From a virus (lineage: Duplodnaviria; Heunggongvirae; Uroviricota; Caudoviricetes), in the IMG/VR virus record IMGVR_UViG_2706794662_000009: 6,417 bases of DNA; one strand, given 5' to 3'. Below, in pieces: positions 1 to 6,417 of this stretch (its first letter is position 1; each line of letters opens with the position of its first letter). The notes beneath the pieces were generated by a model. It made no database searches and was not told the origin of the DNA. It worked only from the letters and a program-made list of their open reading frames with translations. The position numbers were made by a program, and so were the translations under genes.

Positions 1-86
1 CTCCAATGACTAGTCTAAAAACTAGTATTAAGACTATCACTTATTTAAGTGATACTGGTTGTCTGGAGATTCAGGGGGCCAGTCTA
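1..86 (-). mobile_element. Terminal 86 bp of an IS2 element (left end, IRL, adjacent to the insC/orfA start); element body extends leftward out of the window
   Basis: Positions 1-86 are, from my recall, the reverse complement of the IS2 left end (TAGACTGGCCCCCTGAATCTCCAGACAACCAATATCACTTAAATAAGTGATAGTCTTAATACTAGTTTTTAGACTAGTCATTGGAG), with one apparent mismatch near position 55. In IS2 the insC start follows a few bp beyond the last matching base, so it would lie just outside the window. Not verified by alignment. Confidence 0.75.
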
Positions 87-235
87 CCACCCCTGATGTC
101 AGGTAGGAAAACACCATATGTTTCTGCTCTGTTTTTCCTTAGAAATAGGCATCCTTGCTGGAACAAAGCGAGCAGCTATATTGACTCTATGTTGTGAGTG
201 TGTTGATCCGTTCTGAGTTAATACATTTAAGTTGC

Positions 236-1345
236 TCACTCTGTTTCTGCTATCCATTCCGGGATTTTTGCCTCAAGCTCAAGCTGCGTGGTAAAGCCGC
301 TGTTATCAATGGTGTGCTCGGCTTTTGCAATAATCCAGTCCTGATTATCAATCTCGCTTTTAAATCCTGTTACCGTGCCATGCATTTCGGGGTAGAGTTC
401 TGCACGTCCATGCGCCAGTGTGATGGAGAATGATGCGGCTCCGCGTTGTAGCTGCTGCCACTTTGCCGCCGCTGCACGTCTTGCTGCCTGCTCGTTCTGA
501 TAAGTTTTGCGTAACACAAACACGTTGCCTTCCGCACCTTCCATATAGTCGCCTTCCCGGCTGCTGCTTTTCTCCTTTTTTGGTTTTGACGGTTTGCGGC
601 GTTTCACGCTGACTTTTTTCTTTTTCCCGTAATTAAGATCAAGCCAGTAAGCGCGTACCCCCGTATACGCTTCGCGGTCAGCAATGCGGAACTGATGGCG
701 ATCGCCGCTGCTGCGTGTGATGGCGAACGAGGGCAACGGCTGGCCCTGTGCGTTCACGCCACCACCGGGCATGATGAATAACAGATTACCGCTTTTTACC
801 GTGGTGATTGCGCCCAGCATTTCCGCCATGCGCGTAAGGAAGGACATGTCGCTTTCTTCGGTCTGGTCGGCGTGGTCGATTTCGATATCCATCAGCATTT
901 CGCTGATTTGCGGTTTCAGACCATACCGATGAGCGATGGCGGATACCACACGCTCAACGGTCACATCATGCCAGGACACCTCACGTTTAACGTTAAATTC
1001 AGCCCGAAAATCTGCGCTTCTGGCTGAAACAGTCAGCCTGTCCGGCGGTCCTTCGTGAGCGATTTCATCAACAATGTAAGTGCCTTTTTCTGTCAGCGGT
1101 TCTCCCTTCCAGCCAATGAGAACCGTCAGGCGCGCGCCCCGTGGCGGTAGCTGCAACTGACCATCCGCATCATCCAGCGTGATGGTGAGCTGGTCCGCCT
1201 CAAATCCCCGGTTGTCGGTCAGTGACAGGCTCATCAGGCGCTCTGCCACGCCTGACAGCGTTTTACCCTCCGCGAGAATATCAAAATCCGGCATTTTCAC
1301 GGGGTCTGTGCCCTGACTGAGCAATTGCATGGTGGTGTCGGTCAT
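236..1345 (-). CDS. D: Phage tail protein D (P2 gpD / late control gene D family)
   Basis: Minus-strand ORF whose product (MTDTTMQLLSQGTDPVKMPDFDILAEGK...SLSLTDNRGFEADQLTITLDDADG...EGDYMEGAEGNVF...GFTTQLELEAK) resembles P2 gpD as I recall it, including a lysine-rich linker (KKKKVSVKRRKPSKPKKEK). Start chosen at the ATG at 1345, which follows GGGAGGGAG on the minus strand. The longer 413-aa ORF (start 1477) has a Pro/Ser/Thr/Arg-rich N-extension with no RBS. Stop TGA at 238-236. Confidence 0.88.
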   Translation of the reverse strand: MTDTTMQLLSQGTDPVKMPDFDILAEGKTLSGVAERLMSLSLTDNRGFEADQLTITLDDADGQLQLPPRGARLTVLIGWKGEPLTEKGTYIVDEIAHEGPPDRLTVSARSADFRAEFNVKREVSWHDVTVERVVSAIAHRYGLKPQISEMLMDIEIDHADQTEESDMSFLTRMAEMLGAITTVKSGNLLFIMPGGGVNAQGQPLPSFAITRSSGDRHQFRIADREAYTGVRAYWLDLNYGKKKKVSVKRRKPSKPKKEKSSSREGDYMEGAEGNVFVLRKTYQNEQAARRAAAAKWQQLQRGAASFSITLAHGRAELYPEMHGTVTGFKSEIDNQDWIIAKAEHTIDNSGFTTQLELEAKIPEWIAETE

Positions 1346-1502
1346 CTGCTCCCTCCCTGTGTGGCATGGTCGCATGTGCGTGCGGAGGGGGTTACTGCTT
1401 TTTGTTGTCGCCGTGGCGGGAGAATGGCGCAGGGGTGAGATTACGCGCGTGGTGGGTGATGATTGTTGCCGAATCATTTAACGGATACAAGGGGTTGAAG
1501 CT
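1346..1502. promoter_or_regulatory. Divergent intergenic region between D (leftward) and FI (rightward); presumed to contain promoters for both
   Basis: 157-bp non-coding spacer between two divergently oriented start codons. Contains the dyad ATGATT-N7-AATCAT (1459-1477), about 25-45 bp upstream of the FI ATG. No TGT-N12-ACA (P2 Ogr-type activator site) found by eye. No -10/-35 elements assigned. Confidence 0.3.
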
Positions 1503-2687
1503 ATGAGTGAAACTCGTTTTCATGGTGCCCGTGTTACGGAAAATACCGACCTGGTAACAGCGATTAACGATGTTGATTCCAGCGTTATCGGTATCGTGGC
1601 AACGGCGGATGATGCGGACGCGGAGCTGTTCCCGCTGAACAAGCCCACACTGCTGCCCCGCGTCAATGACGTGCTGGGAAAATGCGGAACAACGGGGACG
1701 CTTTATCGTGCGCTTAAGGCCATCGCAGACCAGGTGAGCACAAAGGTGATCGTCGTTCGCGTGGCTGAACACAAAGAAGAAGACGGAAAAACGCAGGATC
1801 AACTGGTTATCGGTGGTTCTGAATCTGACGGCAGCTATACGGGGATGTATGCGCTGCTTGTTGCAGAGCAGGATGAAAGCATCGGATACCGTCCGCGTAT
1901 TCTGGCCGCGCCGGAGCTGGACACGGAGGCGGTGACAAAATCCCTGTGCGTGATTGCGGGTAAACTGCGCGCGTTTGTGTATGCCTCATGTCATGACTGT
2001 AACACGATGGCTGAGGCAATTACCTACCGCCAGAAATTCAACGAACGTGAGGTGATGCTCTTATGGCCGGACTTCATCGCCTACAACCCGAAAAGTGGCA
2101 AAAACGAAACGTTCCCCGCGCCTGCCTATGCGTGCGGCCTTCGTGCGTACATTGACCATGAGCAGGGCTGGCACAAATCGCTGTCCAACGTTCCGGTTAA
2201 AAATGTGCTGGGGATGTCCAGGCATGTGTTCTGGTCGTTGCAGGCCGAAGACAGTGATGCCAACAGCCTCAACAACAAAGAAATCACGACCATTATTCGT
2301 CGCAACGGGTTCCGCTTCTGGGGCAACCGCACACCGGAAACGAACGCCTACATCTTTGAGGTGTATACCCGAACCGCACAGGTGCTGGCTGATTCAATTG
2401 CGGAAGCGCAGTTTGAAACCATCGACAGTCCACTGACGCCTGCGAACGTGAAGGATGTTATCGGTGCCATCAGGGCAAAACTGGATTCACTGGTTACTGC
2501 CGGGAAACTGATTGGGGCGTCGTGCTGGTATGACGTGGTGGATAACGGCACCACGAATTTACGTCAGGGGCGCGTGCGTATTCGCTACAAATATACGCCT
2601 GTTCCCCCGCTGGAAGACATGGAGCTTTACCAGTCGTTTACTGATGAATTCTTTGGTCCCGCATTTGCGGTGCTGGGAGGTGCCTGA
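1503..2687 (+). CDS. FI: Contractile tail sheath protein (P2 gpFI family)
   Basis: 394-aa ORF. Motifs such as DADAELFPLNKP, KLRAFVY, WPDF, EQGWHKSLSNV, IRRNGFRFWGNRT, YTRTAQV and YKYTPVPPLE match my recollection of P2 FI and other sheath proteins. AAGGGG RBS 8 nt upstream of the ATG. Stop TGA overlaps the FII start. Confidence 0.92.
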   Translation: MSETRFHGARVTENTDLVTAINDVDSSVIGIVATADDADAELFPLNKPTLLPRVNDVLGKCGTTGTLYRALKAIADQVSTKVIVVRVAEHKEEDGKTQDQLVIGGSESDGSYTGMYALLVAEQDESIGYRPRILAAPELDTEAVTKSLCVIAGKLRAFVYASCHDCNTMAEAITYRQKFNEREVMLLWPDFIAYNPKSGKNETFPAPAYACGLRAYIDHEQGWHKSLSNVPVKNVLGMSRHVFWSLQAEDSDANSLNNKEITTIIRRNGFRFWGNRTPETNAYIFEVYTRTAQVLADSIAEAQFETIDSPLTPANVKDVIGAIRAKLDSLVTAGKLIGASCWYDVVDNGTTNLRQGRVRIRYKYTPVPPLEDMELYQSFTDEFFGPAFAVLGGA

Positions 2688-3199
2688 TGGCTGTACCAAA
2701 ACATCTTCGCTTTTTTACGCTGTTTGTGGATGGTGAAAACGAAGTGGGTAAGGTGACGTCCGTCACTCTGCCTAAGCTGACGCGCAAAACCGACAGCTAC
2801 CGGGGTGGTGGCATGATGGGAGCGGTAAGTATTGATCTCGGCCTGGATGACTCCGCGCTTGATGCGAGCTTTGTCATGGGGGGCGCAGTTCGTGAGCTGT
2901 TCCTTAAGTATGGCGGCACGATTGACGGTACGCTGCTGCGTTTTGCGGGTGAATACTACACCGACGCTGAAAGCGACCTGTATGAAGTCGAAATGCGCGG
3001 ACGTGTGACGGAAATTGATATGGGGGAAGCCAAACAGGGCGAAGCCACATCACACACTTACGCCATTAAAAACACCTACTACAAGCTGAGTGTTAACGAT
3101 CGCCCGTTGTGGGAGATTGACCTGCTGAACTTCATTTACCGGAAGGACGGCAGGGACATTGTGCCCGATCGCATCCGTTCCGCGCTCGGGCTTGGCTGA
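2687..3199 (+). CDS. FII: Tail tube protein (P2 gpFII family)
   Basis: 170-aa ORF immediately after the sheath gene, with ATGA start/stop overlap. Product resembles P2 FII (VTLPKLTRK..YRGGGM..DLGLDD..RFAG..VEMRGR..KQGE). GGGAGGTG RBS upstream. Size and position are typical for a tube gene. Confidence 0.88.
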   Translation: MAVPKHLRFFTLFVDGENEVGKVTSVTLPKLTRKTDSYRGGGMMGAVSIDLGLDDSALDASFVMGGAVRELFLKYGGTIDGTLLRFAGEYYTDAESDLYEVEMRGRVTEIDMGEAKQGEATSHTYAIKNTYYKLSVNDRPLWEIDLLNFIYRKDGRDIVPDRIRSALGLG

Positions 3200-3253
3200 T
3201 AAGTAATATGCAGGCGGCGCAGTGCGTCGCCTCTGACTGAAAGGAGTTTCCTG

Positions 3254-3579
3254 ATGAAAGAGACGAAAAACATCGATACCGAAAACACGGTCGTTGCTGA
3301 CACTGTGAAAGAAACCAGTGAGCGTGGCGTAAAACTTACCCAACCAATTGAGCGAGGCGGCGAAAAAATCACGTATGTGGAGATCACCGGGGCTATTGAG
3401 CAGGCTGGATCTCTGCGAGATTTGTCGCTGTCTGATGTGCTGAATTTGAAAGCGGAATCCATGTTTACGCTGCTGTCACGCGTGACATCACCGCGACTGG
3501 ATGAAGTGACGATCAAAAAAATGGCATCCCGTGACTTTATTCAGTTATGTGTGGTTGCCGTAAATTTTTTGAGCGGTGC
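3254..3579 (+). CDS. E: Tail assembly chaperone E (P2 gpE family), 3' end lost in the assembly gap; encodes the E/E' frameshift site
   Basis: ORF starts at ATG 3254 with AAAGGAG RBS (3241-3247). It sits between tube and tape measure, the conserved position of the chaperone pair. Contains the slippery heptamer T-TTT-TTG at 3565-3571 in the correct phase. Sequence similarity to P2 E is weak from memory; the call rests mainly on synteny and the frameshift motif. Confidence 0.72.
3565..3571 (+). other. Putative programmed -1 ribosomal frameshift site (T TTT TTG) producing the E' extension
   Basis: In the E reading frame the codons are AAT TTT TTG, giving the heptamer T_TTT_TTG, the slippery sequence described for P2 E/E' and analogous to lambda G/GT. 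The -1 frame is open up to the gap. Confidence 0.6.
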
Positions 3580-3839
3580 NNNNNNNNNNNNNNNNNNNNN
3601 NNNNNNNNNNNNNNNNNNNNNNNNNNNNNNNNNNNNNNNNNNNNNNNNNNNNNNNNNNNNNNNNNNNNNNNNNNNNNNNNNNNNNNNNNNNNNNNNNNNN
3701 NNNNNNNNNNNNNNNNNNNNNNNNNNNNNNNNNNNNNNNNNNNNNNNNNNNNNNNNNNNNNNNNNNNNNNNNNNNNNNNNNNNNNNNNNNNNNNNNNNNN
3801 NNNNNNNNNNNNNNNNNNNNNNNNNNNNNNNNNNNNNNN
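3580..3839. other. Assembly gap or masked sequence (260 N)
   Basis: Uninterrupted run of N. Gap length may be an estimate, so reading-frame continuity across it is unreliable. Confidence 0.99.
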
Positions 3840-3840
3840 C

Positions 3841-6300
3841 CTGATGGGGCAGTTTGGTGACTCCATCCAGCGAACGCAGGGGGCGATCAAAAATCTCGAG
3901 CGTCAGGCGCGTTCATTTGAGCGCGCCCGTGACGCTGTCAGTAAAGCGGATGCGGGCATCGTGAAAGCACGACGCCAGCTTAACGCCCTTAATCAGTTAC
4001 AACGCACGGGTACAGTGCTCAGCGAAAAACAACAAAAGCTGATGCAGCAGTTAAGCACCCGGCTTGAACGCCTGAATGAATCGCGCACACGGGAAATTCA
4101 GAAAATGCGGGAACTTGGCGGAGAGCTGAAACGCCACGGCATTTCCCTGACAGGCAGCGATAACACCATCCAGCAGGCCATCAGACGCACCGGACAATAC
4201 AACAACCAGCTTGAACGCGAACGGCGGGCGCTTGCGCGTGTAACGCAGGCGCGTGAGCGGTATTCACGCGCGCAGGAAACAGCGGGAAAACTGAAAACAG
4301 GTGGTGCGCTGGCAACAGGTGCGGCGGCAGCGGGCGGCTATGCTGCCGGGCGTTTTTTGCAGCCCGCTATCGGGTTCGGGAAAGAGATGTCCCGTGTTCA
4401 GGCACTGACGCGAATCGATAAAAACAGCCCGCAGTTTAAGGCGCTGCGTGAGCAGGCGTTAAAACTTGGCTCTGAAACGCAGTTCACCGCAGGCGATGCC
4501 GCCAGTGGACAGGCATTTCTTGCAATGGCTGGTTTCACACCGCAGGCCATTCAGGCTGCGCTTCCCGGCGTGCTGAGCATGGCAACGGCTGGCGGTATGG
4601 ACCTCGGCGAGACGGCGGATATTGGTTCCAATATCCTGACGCAGTTCGGCCTCTCTGCTGACCAGATGGACCGGGTCGGTGACACACTTACCGCAGCGTT
4701 TACCCGTACCAACACTGACCTTCGCGCACTGGGCGAAACCATGAAATATGCAGGTCCGGTGGCGGGTAAGCTGGGAATATCGCTGGAGCAGGCCGCAGCG
4801 ATGGCGGGCGTGCTGGCGAAGATGGGTATCAGGGGGAGTGATGCAGGTACAGCGTTGCGTAAAAGCCTGGCCAATCTGTCATCACCGCCAAAGGCAGCGG
4901 CAGAAGCACTGAAAGAGCTGGGGGTGTCAGTTGCTGACGCCAAAGGCAAAATGCGCCCGATGGAGAATGTGCTGGCCGATCTCTATAAAGCCACCCGCAA
5001 ATACGGGGAGGTTGACCGGGTATCGTTCTTTAAGGACATTGCCGGAGAAGAGGCTTTCACATCATTTATGGGCCTCGTTGATGCGGCAGGTGACGGCTTC
5101 TTAGCCAAACTGAGAAAAGAACTTGAAGGCGCGCGCGGTGAGGCAGAACGCACGGCAAAGGTTATGGCCAATAACCTTGATGGCAACCTGAAATCACTCG
5201 GCAGTGCATGGGAAGGTCTGCGTATTCGCATCAGTGATCTGGTTGACGGTCCGCTGCGTTCTGTCACGCAGTGGCTCACGCGGGTTGTCTCAAAGGTGAC
5301 GGCGCTGGCGCAGGCCCACCCGGCACTGACGCGCCAGTTACTGATAGCGGGAGGCGCACTGCTGGCGACAACAGCAACGGTTGGTTCGTTGTCTCTGGTT
5401 ATTGGGGTGCTTCACGGGAAGCTGGCTACGTTGCGTCTCGGTTTTTCTCTCCTGACCGAATCAATGAATGTTGTCAGGGTTCTGCCTGCATTATGGGGAA
5501 TGGTGACGGGTTCCGTTTCTTTACTTGGTGGCGCTATCGGGGCGCTGTTCAGTCCGGTTAGTCTTATCGTGGCTGCGCTTGCCGGAGCTGCCGTTCTTAT
5601 CTGGAAATACTGGGATCCCATCAGGGCATTTTTTGCCGGGGTGTTCAGCGGGATTATGGAAAGGCTGACCCCGTTGCGCGAAACCTTTGAACGGTTTGGC
5701 CCTGTTTTTGATGTCGTGCGCGATGGGATTATTCAGGTCTTTAACTGGTTTAAATCGCTGCTGTCACCGATGGAGTCCAGCAAGGAAACGCTGGATAAAT
5801 GTGCCAGTGCTGGCGAGATATTCGGTAACGTTCTTGGCGGTGCGTTACAACTTGTTCTGACACCTGCAAAAATGCTACTGGATACGCTGGCGTGGATACT
5901 TGAAAAACTTGGCGTCCTTCCGGATGAAGCGGAAAGGGCGCGCAAGAAAATCGAAGACGCACAGCGTGCGGCCATTCTTCAGGACAAGGTTGCCTTGCTT
6001 CAGGGGGACCTGGCGAAAATCAATCCGCCGAAGCCTGTGGAAAATGGCAATGGCACCGGAGGTGATAAACCCAAAGACAACAAACCGCTCACAGACAGCA
6101 ATACCGGGACGCTACGCAGACTCAGCAAAATTGCTGATAACACAGGTAAGCTGGTTGATGAGACGAAAAAACGCATTGGCCCCGGCGATATTGTCTTTAA
6201 GAACCTGCCCCGCGCACTTGCTGTTCGTGGGGAGTGGCAGGAGCGGAAGATTGCGCAGGTCAGTAAGCCTGCCCCCGCAATTAATATCACACTGAGGTAG
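3841..6300 (+). CDS. T: Tail tape measure protein (P2 gpT family), 5' end in gap; 3' end runs into an IS element and is probably truncated
   Basis: About 820 visible codons. N-terminal part is charged and helical (Q/R/E/L-rich), followed by a Gly/Ala-rich region and hydrophobic segments (about 5320-5600), then a C-terminal region, all typical of tape measure proteins. Located after FI-FII-E as in P2. Start is either inside the gap or at ATG 3844. The last two codons and the TAG stop (6293-6300) lie within the inferred IS terminus. Confidence 0.88.
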   Translation: MMGQFGDSIQRTQGAIKNLERQARSFERARDAVSKADAGIVKARRQLNALNQLQRTGTVLSEKQQKLMQQLSTRLERLNESRTREIQKMRELGGELKRHGISLTGSDNTIQQAIRRTGQYNNQLERERRALARVTQARERYSRAQETAGKLKTGGALATGAAAAGGYAAGRFLQPAIGFGKEMSRVQALTRIDKNSPQFKALREQALKLGSETQFTAGDAASGQAFLAMAGFTPQAIQAALPGVLSMATAGGMDLGETADIGSNILTQFGLSADQMDRVGDTLTAAFTRTNTDLRALGETMKYAGPVAGKLGISLEQAAAMAGVLAKMGIRGSDAGTALRKSLANLSSPPKAAAEALKELGVSVADAKGKMRPMENVLADLYKATRKYGEVDRVSFFKDIAGEEAFTSFMGLVDAAGDGFLAKLRKELEGARGEAERTAKVMANNLDGNLKSLGSAWEGLRIRISDLVDGPLRSVTQWLTRVVSKVTALAQAHPALTRQLLIAGGALLATTATVGSLSLVIGVLHGKLATLRLGFSLLTESMNVVRVLPALWGMVTGSVSLLGGAIGALFSPVSLIVAALAGAAVLIWKYWDPIRAFFAGVFSGIMERLTPLRETFERFGPVFDVVRDGIIQVFNWFKSLLSPMESSKETLDKCASAGEIFGNVLGGALQLVLTPAKMLLDTLAWILEKLGVLPDEAERARKKIEDAQRAAILQDKVALLQGDLAKINPPKPVENGNGTGGDKPKDNKPLTDSNTGTLRRLSKIADNTGKLVDETKKRIGPGDIVFKNLPRALAVRGEWQERKIAQVSKPAPAINITLR

Positions 6301-6417
6301 CCTGAGTTTAACGGACACTCCTTCCTGAAATAGAATGGCATCAGAAGGAGCTAATAATGAGCAGAAAAACCCAACGTTACTCTAAAGAGTTCAAAGCCGA
6401 AGCTGTCAGAACGGTTC
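6293..6417 (+). mobile_element. Left end of an IS3-family insertion sequence (IS600-like), extending rightward out of the window
   Basis: Begins TGAGGTAGCCTGAGTTTAACGGACAC, which has the TG start and a GGACAC block at the same offset as the IS3 terminal repeat as I recall it. An orfA start follows 64 bp inside, the usual spacing for IS3-family elements. Exact boundary is uncertain by a few bp. Confidence 0.75.
6357..6417 (+). CDS. IS3-family transposase OrfA (helix-turn-helix N-terminal protein), 5' fragment; continues beyond the window
   Basis: Translation MSRKTQRYSKEFKAEAVRTV matches my recollection of the IS600 OrfA N-terminus. GGAG RBS at 6344-6347. Confidence 0.8.
   Translation, partial: MSRKTQRYSKEFKAEAVRTV

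What the first reader, a model, noticed from the sequence alone, without database searches (positions are those of the whole stretch)
6280..6360. Tape measure gene ends inside the terminus of an IS3-family element; gene U is missing
The T reading frame continues without a stop up to the inferred IS600-like left end (about 6293). The final two codons and the TAG stop are supplied by IS sequence, so the native 3' end of T appears to have been replaced by the insertion. In P2-like phages T is followed by U and D, but here nothing lies between T and the IS. A tail with a truncated tape measure and no U is expected to be defective, so this is a decayed tail module rather than an active prophage or tailocin.
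Basis: partly seen in the sequence, partly recalled or inferred. Interest (0 to 1): 0.6.

Follow-up and report, generated by a model that had tools for sequence, protein, structure and literature searches.

The report
IS600 insertion truncating a prophage tape-measure gene
A common Shigella jumping gene (IS600) has landed in the tail-length gene of a P88-like prophage of Shigella sonnei and cut off its last 93 codons, but the apparent loss of the next gene (U) only reflects a draft-assembly contig that stops inside the repeat, so this is ordinary genome decay.

Summary
Homology to intact tape-measure (T) genes stops exactly at window 6292. Bases 6293-6417 are 100% identical to the left end of IS600. 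The T frame closes as C|TG AGG TAG, using IS sequence. The product keeps 842 of 935 native residues plus Leu-Arg, so 93 residues are lost, including a C-terminal stretch conserved in every sequenced relative phage.

The window is a complete 6417-bp draft contig of Shigella sonnei (CWST01000177.1). It starts inside IS2 (1-86) and ends 125 nt into IS600. "U is missing" is therefore an assembly break, not a demonstrated deletion.

The closest relative (100% identical, intact T) has gpU 12 nt after T. The gene order is also not that of P2. It is the native order of phage P88 (Xuanwuvirus), in which D lies upstream and divergent from FI, and D is present in the window at 236-1345 on the minus strand.

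The same junction, as the exact 844-aa product, occurs on 3 other short contigs. The intact allele occurs on 491 contigs. This points to a rare, recent, sublineage-specific insertion.

I could not read the far side of the IS. IS600 and IS2 expansion in S. sonnei is well documented, so interest is low.

The parts
1..86 (-). Terminal 86 nt of an IS2 copy (its left end, inverted). The contig starts inside this repeat.
   Evidence: Window 1-84 matches only L005, which carries a full IS with 121-aa and 301-aa transposase ORFs at this spot; the other relatives start matching at 85. The element is annotated 'IS3-like element IS2 family transposase' in E. coli genomes at 99% identity.
87..91 (.). 5-bp target-site duplication (CCACC) of the IS2 insertion, in the intergenic region downstream of gpD.
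   Evidence: The L005 filled site compared with the L002 empty site shows CCACC on both sides of the IS.
236..1345 (-). gpD-like baseplate hub gene (369 aa as called; the mechanical ORF extends to 1477), divergent from the sheath gene.
   Evidence: Pfam Phage_GPD 5e-17; PHROG 52 tail protein 9e-166; called gene. Phage P88 has the same divergent position.
1503..2687 (+). Tail sheath gene (FI), 394 aa.
   Evidence: Pfam Phage_sheath_1, Gp18_domIII_N and Phage_sheath_1C. The identical protein is listed in 830 blocks of the public collection.
2687..3199 (+). Tail tube gene (FII), 170 aa.
   Evidence: Pfam Phage_tube 1.9e-46.
3254..3579 (+). 5' part of the tail assembly chaperone gene E, cut by the gap. 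The slippery TTTTTTG of the E/E+E' -1 frameshift type lies at 3565-3571.
   Evidence: It corresponds to the 121-aa gene at L005:11752-12117, followed by a Phage_P2_GpE ORF. Sequence read.
3580..3839 (.). Scaffold gap of 260 N in the deposited contig. It hides the end of E, all of E' and the first 74 nt of T.
   Evidence: The N run is present in the public record L012, which is identical to the window. Relatives have 264 nt here.
3840..6292 (+). Native part of the tape-measure gene T (residues 26-842 of 935, plus the first base of codon 843).
   Evidence: Pfam PhageMin_Tail 1.3e-57. 96% identical to the intact 935-aa T of E. coli and of phage P88, with both alignments ending at residue 842. 100% DNA identity to L005 and L002, which have intact T.
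6290..6292 (.). Predicted 3-bp target site (CAC) that would be duplicated on the far side if this is a simple insertion.
   Evidence: Inference from the 3-bp duplications (AAC, CAC) of two complete IS600 copies in related loci. The far side was not observed.
6292..6300 (+). Fusion codons CTG AGG and the TAG stop that close the truncated T frame.
   Evidence: Read directly from the sequence. The exact 844-aa product ending in LR is on record on 3 other contigs.
6293..6417 (+). Left end of IS600 (IS3 family): the inverted repeat starting TGAGG, then the first 20 codons of orfA from the ATG at 6357. The contig ends here.
   Evidence: 125/125 identity to IS600-family copies annotated by PGAP and to complete 1264-bp copies in L003, L004 and L009. 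orfA starts at IS position 65 in those copies as well.

Best explanation
This is a recent, sublineage-specific transposition of IS600 (IS3 family, 1264 bp) into codon 843 of the tape-measure gene T. The gene belongs to a P88-like (Xuanwuvirus, Peduoviridae) prophage that sits next to pheST-ihfA in Shigella sonnei. The IS left end supplies two codons and a stop, so T makes an 844-aa protein lacking the last 93 residues. The IS also puts 1.26 kb of foreign DNA between the operon's upstream genes and the tube-initiator gene U. The tail most likely cannot assemble, so the prophage can no longer make infectious particles. The window stops 125 nt into the IS only because it is a short-read draft contig bounded by repeats (IS2 on the left, IS600 on the right). 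The remaining 281 nt of T, followed by U and the invertase, most likely lie on another contig beyond the IS, preceded by a CAC duplication.

Shown here: the junction, the IS identity and terminus, the size of the truncation, the contig identity, the gene order, and the rarity of the allele.

Inferred: a simple insertion with U intact on the far side, and loss of tail function.
For: Junction and terminus. Truncation to residues 1-842 of 935. Window is the whole contig CWST01000177.1 of GCA_001254515.1, and its T product is CSE44085.1 'tail protein [Shigella sonnei]'. The left end of the contig is IS2 with a 5-bp duplication. The closest relative L005 is 100% identical on both sides of the gap, shares the IS2 insertion, has an intact 935-aa T followed by gpU and the invertase, and has no IS600 within 10 kb. 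The exact truncated 844-aa product is on 3 further contigs (longest 6262 nt, the size expected for the same IS2-to-IS600 segment), against 491 contigs for the identical intact allele. The gene order is collinear with the inducible phage P88 at 96% identity, and P88 also has a 935-aa T followed by U. The C-terminal segment is kept in all 13 Xuanwuvirus phage records, and its last ~50 aa are recognisable in Klebsiella phages. gpU is the tube initiator sitting on the gpD hub, and the tape measure forms a helix bundle near the spike in P2: preprint 10.64898/2026.09.14.750843. IS600 and IS2 are among the five IS expanded in Shigella, with the greatest recent activity in S. sonnei and strong strain-to-strain variation: PMC7373316. 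Remnant ORFs of the T C-terminus with internal starts exist in the same sources (a 72-aa ORF in Logan and ENA, on contigs up to 2553 nt), as expected for a far-side contig whose T frame is closed by the TAG 27 nt inside the IS600 right end.
Against: The far side of the IS was never seen. Exact-junction scans found nothing in genome contigs, viral contigs or metagenome contigs. The predicted 99-aa TTG-start remnant ORF is not on record. Related S. sonnei-type genomes carry another IS600 in the same orientation about 1.5 kb downstream, just past the invertase. An IS600-by-IS600 deletion that really removes the T 3' end, U and the invertase is therefore mechanistically possible. Loss of function of a tape measure lacking its C-terminus is inferred from conservation and from general knowledge of tail assembly, and was not tested for this protein.
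Confidence: 0.75

Rival explanations
1. IS600-mediated deletion or inversion. The IS600 copy at 6293 would be the product of recombination between two IS600 copies, or of an adjacent deletion. In that case the 3' end of T, gene U and possibly the invertase are truly gone or moved.
For: Several related chromosomes have an IS600 in the same orientation at the position equivalent to about 1.47 kb downstream of the break, just after the invertase, and further copies in the tail-fibre region. Nothing beyond the IS is visible in the window.
Against: The genomes with that downstream IS600 differ from the window by a SNP in T and lack the IS2 at the window's left end. The 100%-identical relative L005, which shares the IS2, has no IS600 within 10 kb. 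Strain-specific simple insertions are the dominant IS event in S. sonnei (PMC7373316). T C-terminal remnant ORFs of exactly matching sequence exist on short contigs from the same sources.
Confidence: 0.17
2. Assembly artefact. The T|IS600 junction would be a chimeric join made by the assembler or scaffolder at a repeat, with T intact in the real genome.
For: The contig is a scaffold with an internal 260-N gap and ends in repeats at both ends.
Against: The break falls exactly at the canonical TG terminus of IS600, to the base. The exact 844-aa fusion product ...INITLR is found on 3 additional contigs assembled independently from other read sets. A random misjoin would not reproduce this.
Confidence: 0.03
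3. The truncated tape measure is still functional, for example giving tails of altered length, so the prophage or a tailocin derived from it remains active.
For: The first 25 residues of the lost segment are a Pro/Ala/Val-rich, low-complexity linker. Internal parts of tape measures tolerate length changes (general knowledge).
Against: The last 68 residues are 97-100% conserved in all Xuanwuvirus phage records, and the last ~50 are detectable in Klebsiella phages. No phage record has a T ending near residue 842. U is separated from its operon by the IS. In contractile tails the distal end of the tape measure engages the hub and spike, where assembly starts (for P2; the C-terminal orientation is general knowledge).
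Confidence: 0.05

Closest known systems
IS600 (IS3 family) insertions in Shigella genomes
   Same: Identical sequence over all 125 visible bases. The canonical TGAGG terminus and orfA start at IS position 65 match. Complete sister copies are 1264 bp with TG...CA ends, 100-aa and 272-aa ORFs and 3-bp duplications. Gene inactivation by strain-specific IS600 or IS2 insertion is the documented pattern in S. sonnei (PMC7373316).
   Different: Only the left end is visible here. The right end and the target duplication of this particular copy were not observed. I did not find this insertion site described, and it is absent from all 5,426 complete E. coli genomes searched.
Escherichia phage P88 (Xuanwuvirus P88, Peduoviridae), an inducible P2-like temperate myovirus
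   Same: Window 225-6292 is collinear with P88 at 96% identity. The order is D divergent from FI-FII-E-E'-T, T is 935 aa and is followed by U and then a DNA invertase.
   Different: P88 has an intact T. The S. sonnei prophage has IS2 downstream of D and IS600 in T. Its relatives also carry an extra 500-aa PIN_4 gene plus ogr between D and hok that P88 lacks.
Phage P2 F operon (FI FII E E+E' T U D ogr)
   Same: The proteins are homologous (T is 32% identical over residues 4-723) and the same E/E' slippery TTTTTTG is present. gpU acts as tube initiator and gpD as hub.
   Different: In P2, D follows U on the same strand. Here D is upstream and divergent, and an invertase follows U. T is 935 aa rather than 815 aa, and its C-terminal ~200 residues do not align significantly with P2 gpT.

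Membership tests
IS3 family / IS600 | Terminal inverted repeats beginning 5'-TG and ending CA-3' | tested here: met
   The window copy starts TGAGG at 6293. Identical complete copies in L003, L004 and L009 end ...CCTCA. The right end of this particular copy is not visible.
IS3 family / IS600 | Sequence identity to named IS600 copies | tested here: met
   125/125 identity to more than 3,000 records. PGAP annotation reads 'IS3-like element IS600 family transposase'.
IS3 family / IS600 | Two consecutive ORFs, orfA (HTH) and orfB (DDE/rve), and a length of about 1.2-1.5 kb | tested here: inconclusive
   Only the first 20 codons of orfA (6357-6416) lie in the window. Sister copies are 1264 bp with a 100-aa HTH_Tnp_1 ORF and a 272-aa rve ORF.
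IS3 family / IS600 | 3-bp (3-4 bp) target-site duplication | not testable with these tools
   The far side lies on another contig. Sister copies have AAC and CAC duplications. Scans for the predicted right junction found nothing.
Phage tail tape measure protein (P2 gpT type) | PhageMin_Tail domain and full-length homology to tape measures of Peduoviridae | tested here: met
   Pfam PF10145 1.3e-57; PHROG 28 4e-212 for the intact allele; 96% identity to P88 T; 32% to P2 gpT.
Phage tail tape measure protein (P2 gpT type) | Complete C-terminus as in functional phages | tested here: not met
   Alignments end at residue 842 of 935, so 93 residues are replaced by Leu-Arg. All phage relatives keep this segment.
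Xuanwuvirus (P88-like) prophage tail module | Gene order D (divergent) | FI FII E E' T U | invertase | tested here: met
   D, FI, FII, E and T are in P88 order and at 96% identity in the window. U and the invertase are seen only in relatives.
Xuanwuvirus (P88-like) prophage tail module | Presence of gpU (tube initiator) downstream of T | not testable with these tools
   The contig ends 125 nt into IS600. gpU is present 12 nt after T in L002-L011.
Canonical P2 F operon order (T-U-D-ogr) | D immediately downstream of U on the same strand | tested here: not met
   D is at 236-1345 on the minus strand, upstream of FI. The P2 order is shown.

The most novel reading that the evidence does not exclude
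The IS600 at 6293 could be the scar of an IS-mediated deletion or inversion, not a simple insertion. Such an event would have removed or relocated the T 3' end, gpU and the invertase. Alternatively, this lesion could be one of several independent hits on the same gene in S. sonnei and E. coli: other T C-terminal remnant ORFs of 64, 84 and 92 aa exist. That would reflect selection to disarm the tail of this widespread P88-like prophage, not neutral decay.
Probability: 0.15. Interest if true: 0.25.

Novelty: already known. Interest (0 to 1): 0.1.

Why it matters
It matters little beyond annotation. It is one more example of IS-driven pseudogenisation in Shigella sonnei, here disabling the tail of a P88-like prophage in a small sublineage. 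The practical lesson is methodological. A gene that seems to be missing after an IS end at the edge of a window may only reflect a draft contig breaking in a repeat. P2 gene order also should not be assumed for all Peduoviridae.

Tried and rejected
1. Exact 40-mer scan for the T|IS600 junction: 0 hits in genome contigs, viral contigs and metagenome contigs.

2. Scan for the predicted right junction (IS600 right end + CAC + rest of T): 0 hits in viral contigs and genome contigs.

4. The predicted 99-aa TTG-start remnant ORF across the right junction is not on record. The 72-aa and 64-aa internal-start remnants are on record, but I could not open their contigs.

5. I tried to predict the far-side contig length from repeated 31-mers inside L005. 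There were no internal repeats, so the test was uninformative.

6. I first read the divergent D gene as a rearrangement. I rejected this when P88 showed the same native order.

7. I considered that the 4-nt shortfall in the N run might be a frameshifting deletion in E' or T. I rejected this because the N run is a scaffold gap in the deposited record and the gap-free 844-aa product exists elsewhere.

8. Solved-structure search for T: the only hit covers the N-terminal/central part (9g8s), nothing covers the C-terminus. The alignment of the C-terminus with P2 gpT is not significant.
Full report
**What is at the coordinates**

The long + strand ORF ends at TAG 6298-6300. Its product carries the PhageMin_Tail domain. 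It follows a tail sheath gene (1503-2687), a tail tube gene (2687-3199) and an E-type chaperone gene that starts at 3254.

A megablast of window 5400-6417 against 5,426 complete E. coli genomes gave 1,365 records with intact 'phage tail tape measure protein' genes. All of them stop matching at query base 893, which is window 6292. A pairwise alignment with one intact gene (L001) is identical through ...AATATCACAC and unrelated from 6293 on.

Window 6293-6417 is 125/125 identical to copies annotated 'IS3-like element IS600 family transposase' in more than 3,000 records.

Two independent complete IS600 copies in related loci are 1264 bp long. They begin TGAGG, end CCTCA and have 3-bp target duplications, AAC and CAC. 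The IS terminus is therefore exactly 6293. Codon 843 is C|TG, codon 844 is AGG and the TAG stop is IS sequence.

**How much of T is lost**

The intact allele is 935 aa in E. coli, in the 100%-identical relative L005 and in phage P88. All alignments end at residue 842, so 93 residues (10%) are replaced by Leu-Arg.

The ORF listing length of 917 aa is an artefact. The ORF runs through a block of 260 N (3580-3839) that hides the true start.

The lost segment begins with a Pro/Ala/Val-rich linker. The last 68 residues are 97-100% identical in all 13 Xuanwuvirus-type phage records, and the last ~50 are still detectable at 64% identity in Klebsiella phages. No phage record has a T ending near residue 842.

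**What the window is**

An exact-product look-up of the ORF from the first ATG after the gap (3844-6297) returned a single record. It is contig CWST01000177.1 of assembly GCA_001254515.1, 6417 bp long and identical to the window, N run included. The protein is CSE44085.1, 'tail protein [Shigella sonnei]'.

The first 86 nt are the inverted left end of IS2, with a 5-bp duplication (CCACC) relative to the empty site. The window is thus a whole draft scaffold bounded by repeats on both sides, IS2 and IS600.

It follows that 'nothing lies between T and the IS' and 'U is missing' are consequences of where the assembler stopped. They are not observations about the genome.

**Context from relatives**

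The sheath protein is identical in many Shigella/E. coli chromosomes, where the element sits next to pheST-ihfA. The order there is:

- hok, ogr, a 500-aa PIN_4 protein and gpD, all on the minus strand
- FI, FII, E, E', T (935 aa) and gpU on the plus strand
- a DNA invertase on the minus strand
- an invertible tail-fibre segment
- H, I and J on the minus strand

L005 shares the IS2 insertion and is 100% identical to the window on both sides of the gap. It has an intact T, gpU 12 nt downstream of T, and no IS600 within 10 kb.

**Gene order**

I first suspected that the divergent gpD was a rearrangement. However, window 225-6292 is collinear at 96% identity with Escherichia phage P88 (Xuanwuvirus, Peduoviridae), an inducible temperate phage (PMC5285337 listed).

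The P88 annotation shows the same native layout...J I H tfa | invertible segment | invertase | U T E' E FII FI | D | hok. The P2 order T-U-D-ogr does not apply. D is not expected after T, and it is present in the window at 236-1345 on the minus strand.

**How common the lesion is**

The gap-free truncated product was reconstructed from L005 plus the window junction (844 aa, ending ...INITLR). It exists exactly in the public protein collection on 3 contigs from independent read-set assemblies. The longest is 6262 nt, about the size of the same IS2-to-IS600 segment.

The identical intact allele is on 491 contigs, including complete S. sonnei chromosomes. No complete E. coli genome has the junction. 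The junction is therefore real, and not a one-off chimera, but it is rare. This fits a recent, sublineage-specific insertion.

It also fits published work. IS600 and IS2 are among five IS expanded in all Shigella, with the highest recent activity in S. sonnei and large strain-to-strain variation (PMC7373316).

**The far side of the IS**

I could not read it. Exact scans for the left junction and for the predicted right junction (...GCCAGTACACCTCA|CAC|CCGTAGTCC...) found nothing in the genome, viral or metagenome collections.

If the insertion is simple, the T frame entering from the IS600 right end is closed by a TAG 27 nt inside the IS. The remnant would then be called from an internal start. 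Remnants of 72 aa (Logan and ENA, contigs up to 2553 nt) and 64 aa, with exactly matching sequence, are on record. This is consistent with a simple insertion but is not proof.

The alternative is recombination with another IS600. Some related chromosomes have a copy in the same orientation about 1.5 kb downstream, after the invertase. Such an event would really delete the T 3' end, U and the invertase. Those chromosomes differ from the window by a SNP in T and lack the IS2, whereas the IS2-bearing twin L005 has no such copy. I give the deletion scenario about 0.17.

**Mechanism and consequence**

*Shown:* IS600 sits in codon 843 of T in the same orientation as the operon. T is truncated to 842 native residues plus 2.

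*Inferred:* IS3-family transposition with a CAC duplication. The inferred consequences are as follows.

- U is displaced 1.26 kb from the upstream genes and subject to polarity.
- Tail assembly fails. The tape measure's conserved distal end is gone, and U is the tube initiator that sits on the gpD hub (P2 cryo-EM preprint). That the tape measure's C-terminus is the hub-proximal end where assembly starts is general knowledge of long-tailed phages and was not tested here.
- The prophage in this sublineage is then tail-defective.

Whether the rest of the roughly 35-kb prophage is intact could not be checked. The allowed flanks reach only as far as J.

**Comparison with known systems and verdict**

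Everything here belongs to known kinds: IS600, IS2, a P88-like Peduoviridae prophage and IS-mediated pseudogenisation in Shigella. Interest is low.

Noticed in passing
window 1-91: The contig starts inside an IS2 copy (its inverted left end, 1-86) with a 5-bp target duplication CCACC (87-91). It is inserted in the intergenic region downstream of gpD, about 74 nt upstream of the start of the neighbouring PIN_4 gene seen in relatives. L005 has the same insertion.
   Followed up: yes
window 3580-3839: A run of 260 N is a scaffold gap in the deposited record (relatives have 264 nt). It hides the end of E, all of E' and the first 74 nt of T. This is why mechanical ORF calling gives a spurious 917-aa T and gene callers start T at 3844.
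   Followed up: yes
window 3565-3571: A slippery TTTTTTG lies immediately before the gap, in the E gene. It is the same heptamer type as the annotated P2 E/E+E' -1 frameshift site. The downstream E' frame is inside the gap.
   Followed up: partly
window 236-1503: gpD is divergent from the sheath gene, with a short intergenic region. This is the native Xuanwuvirus (P88) arrangement and differs from P2, where D follows U.
   Followed up: yes
L002-L011, about 6171-8508 (outside the window, beyond its left end): Between gpD and ihfA the relatives carry a 500-aa PIN_4-domain protein, an Ogr/Delta gene and a hok/gef gene. Phage P88 has hok after D but no PIN_4 gene. This may be a cargo or defence gene of this prophage lineage.
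   Followed up: no
L003/L004/L007/L009/L010 at 16265-17528; L004/L010 about 19229-20492 (minus); L009 at 18899-20162: There are further IS600 copies in the invertase and tail-fibre region of the same prophage in related chromosomes, with 3-bp duplications AAC and CAC. The tail-fibre module is hit repeatedly.
   Followed up: partly
proteins P0006, P0023, P0026: Other T C-terminal remnant ORFs exist in S. sonnei and E. coli assemblies: 64 aa on 12 contigs including a complete genome, 92 aa named 'tail protein [Shigella sonnei]' on 14 contigs, and 84 aa fused to a foreign N-terminus. T has therefore been disrupted independently several times. The 92-aa ORF needs a start codon that the native sequence lacks at that position, and its origin is unexplained.
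   Followed up: partly
L011 16777-21185: In one relative the block L-X-lysis-R-S-V-W-J lies directly after the invertase on the plus strand. This is a large inversion relative to P88 and the other loci.
   Followed up: no
L008 11752-15082: In one NCTC assembly E and T are split into several short ORFs by small indels (98.8% identity with length differences). This looks like long-read sequencing error rather than real decay.
   Followed up: no
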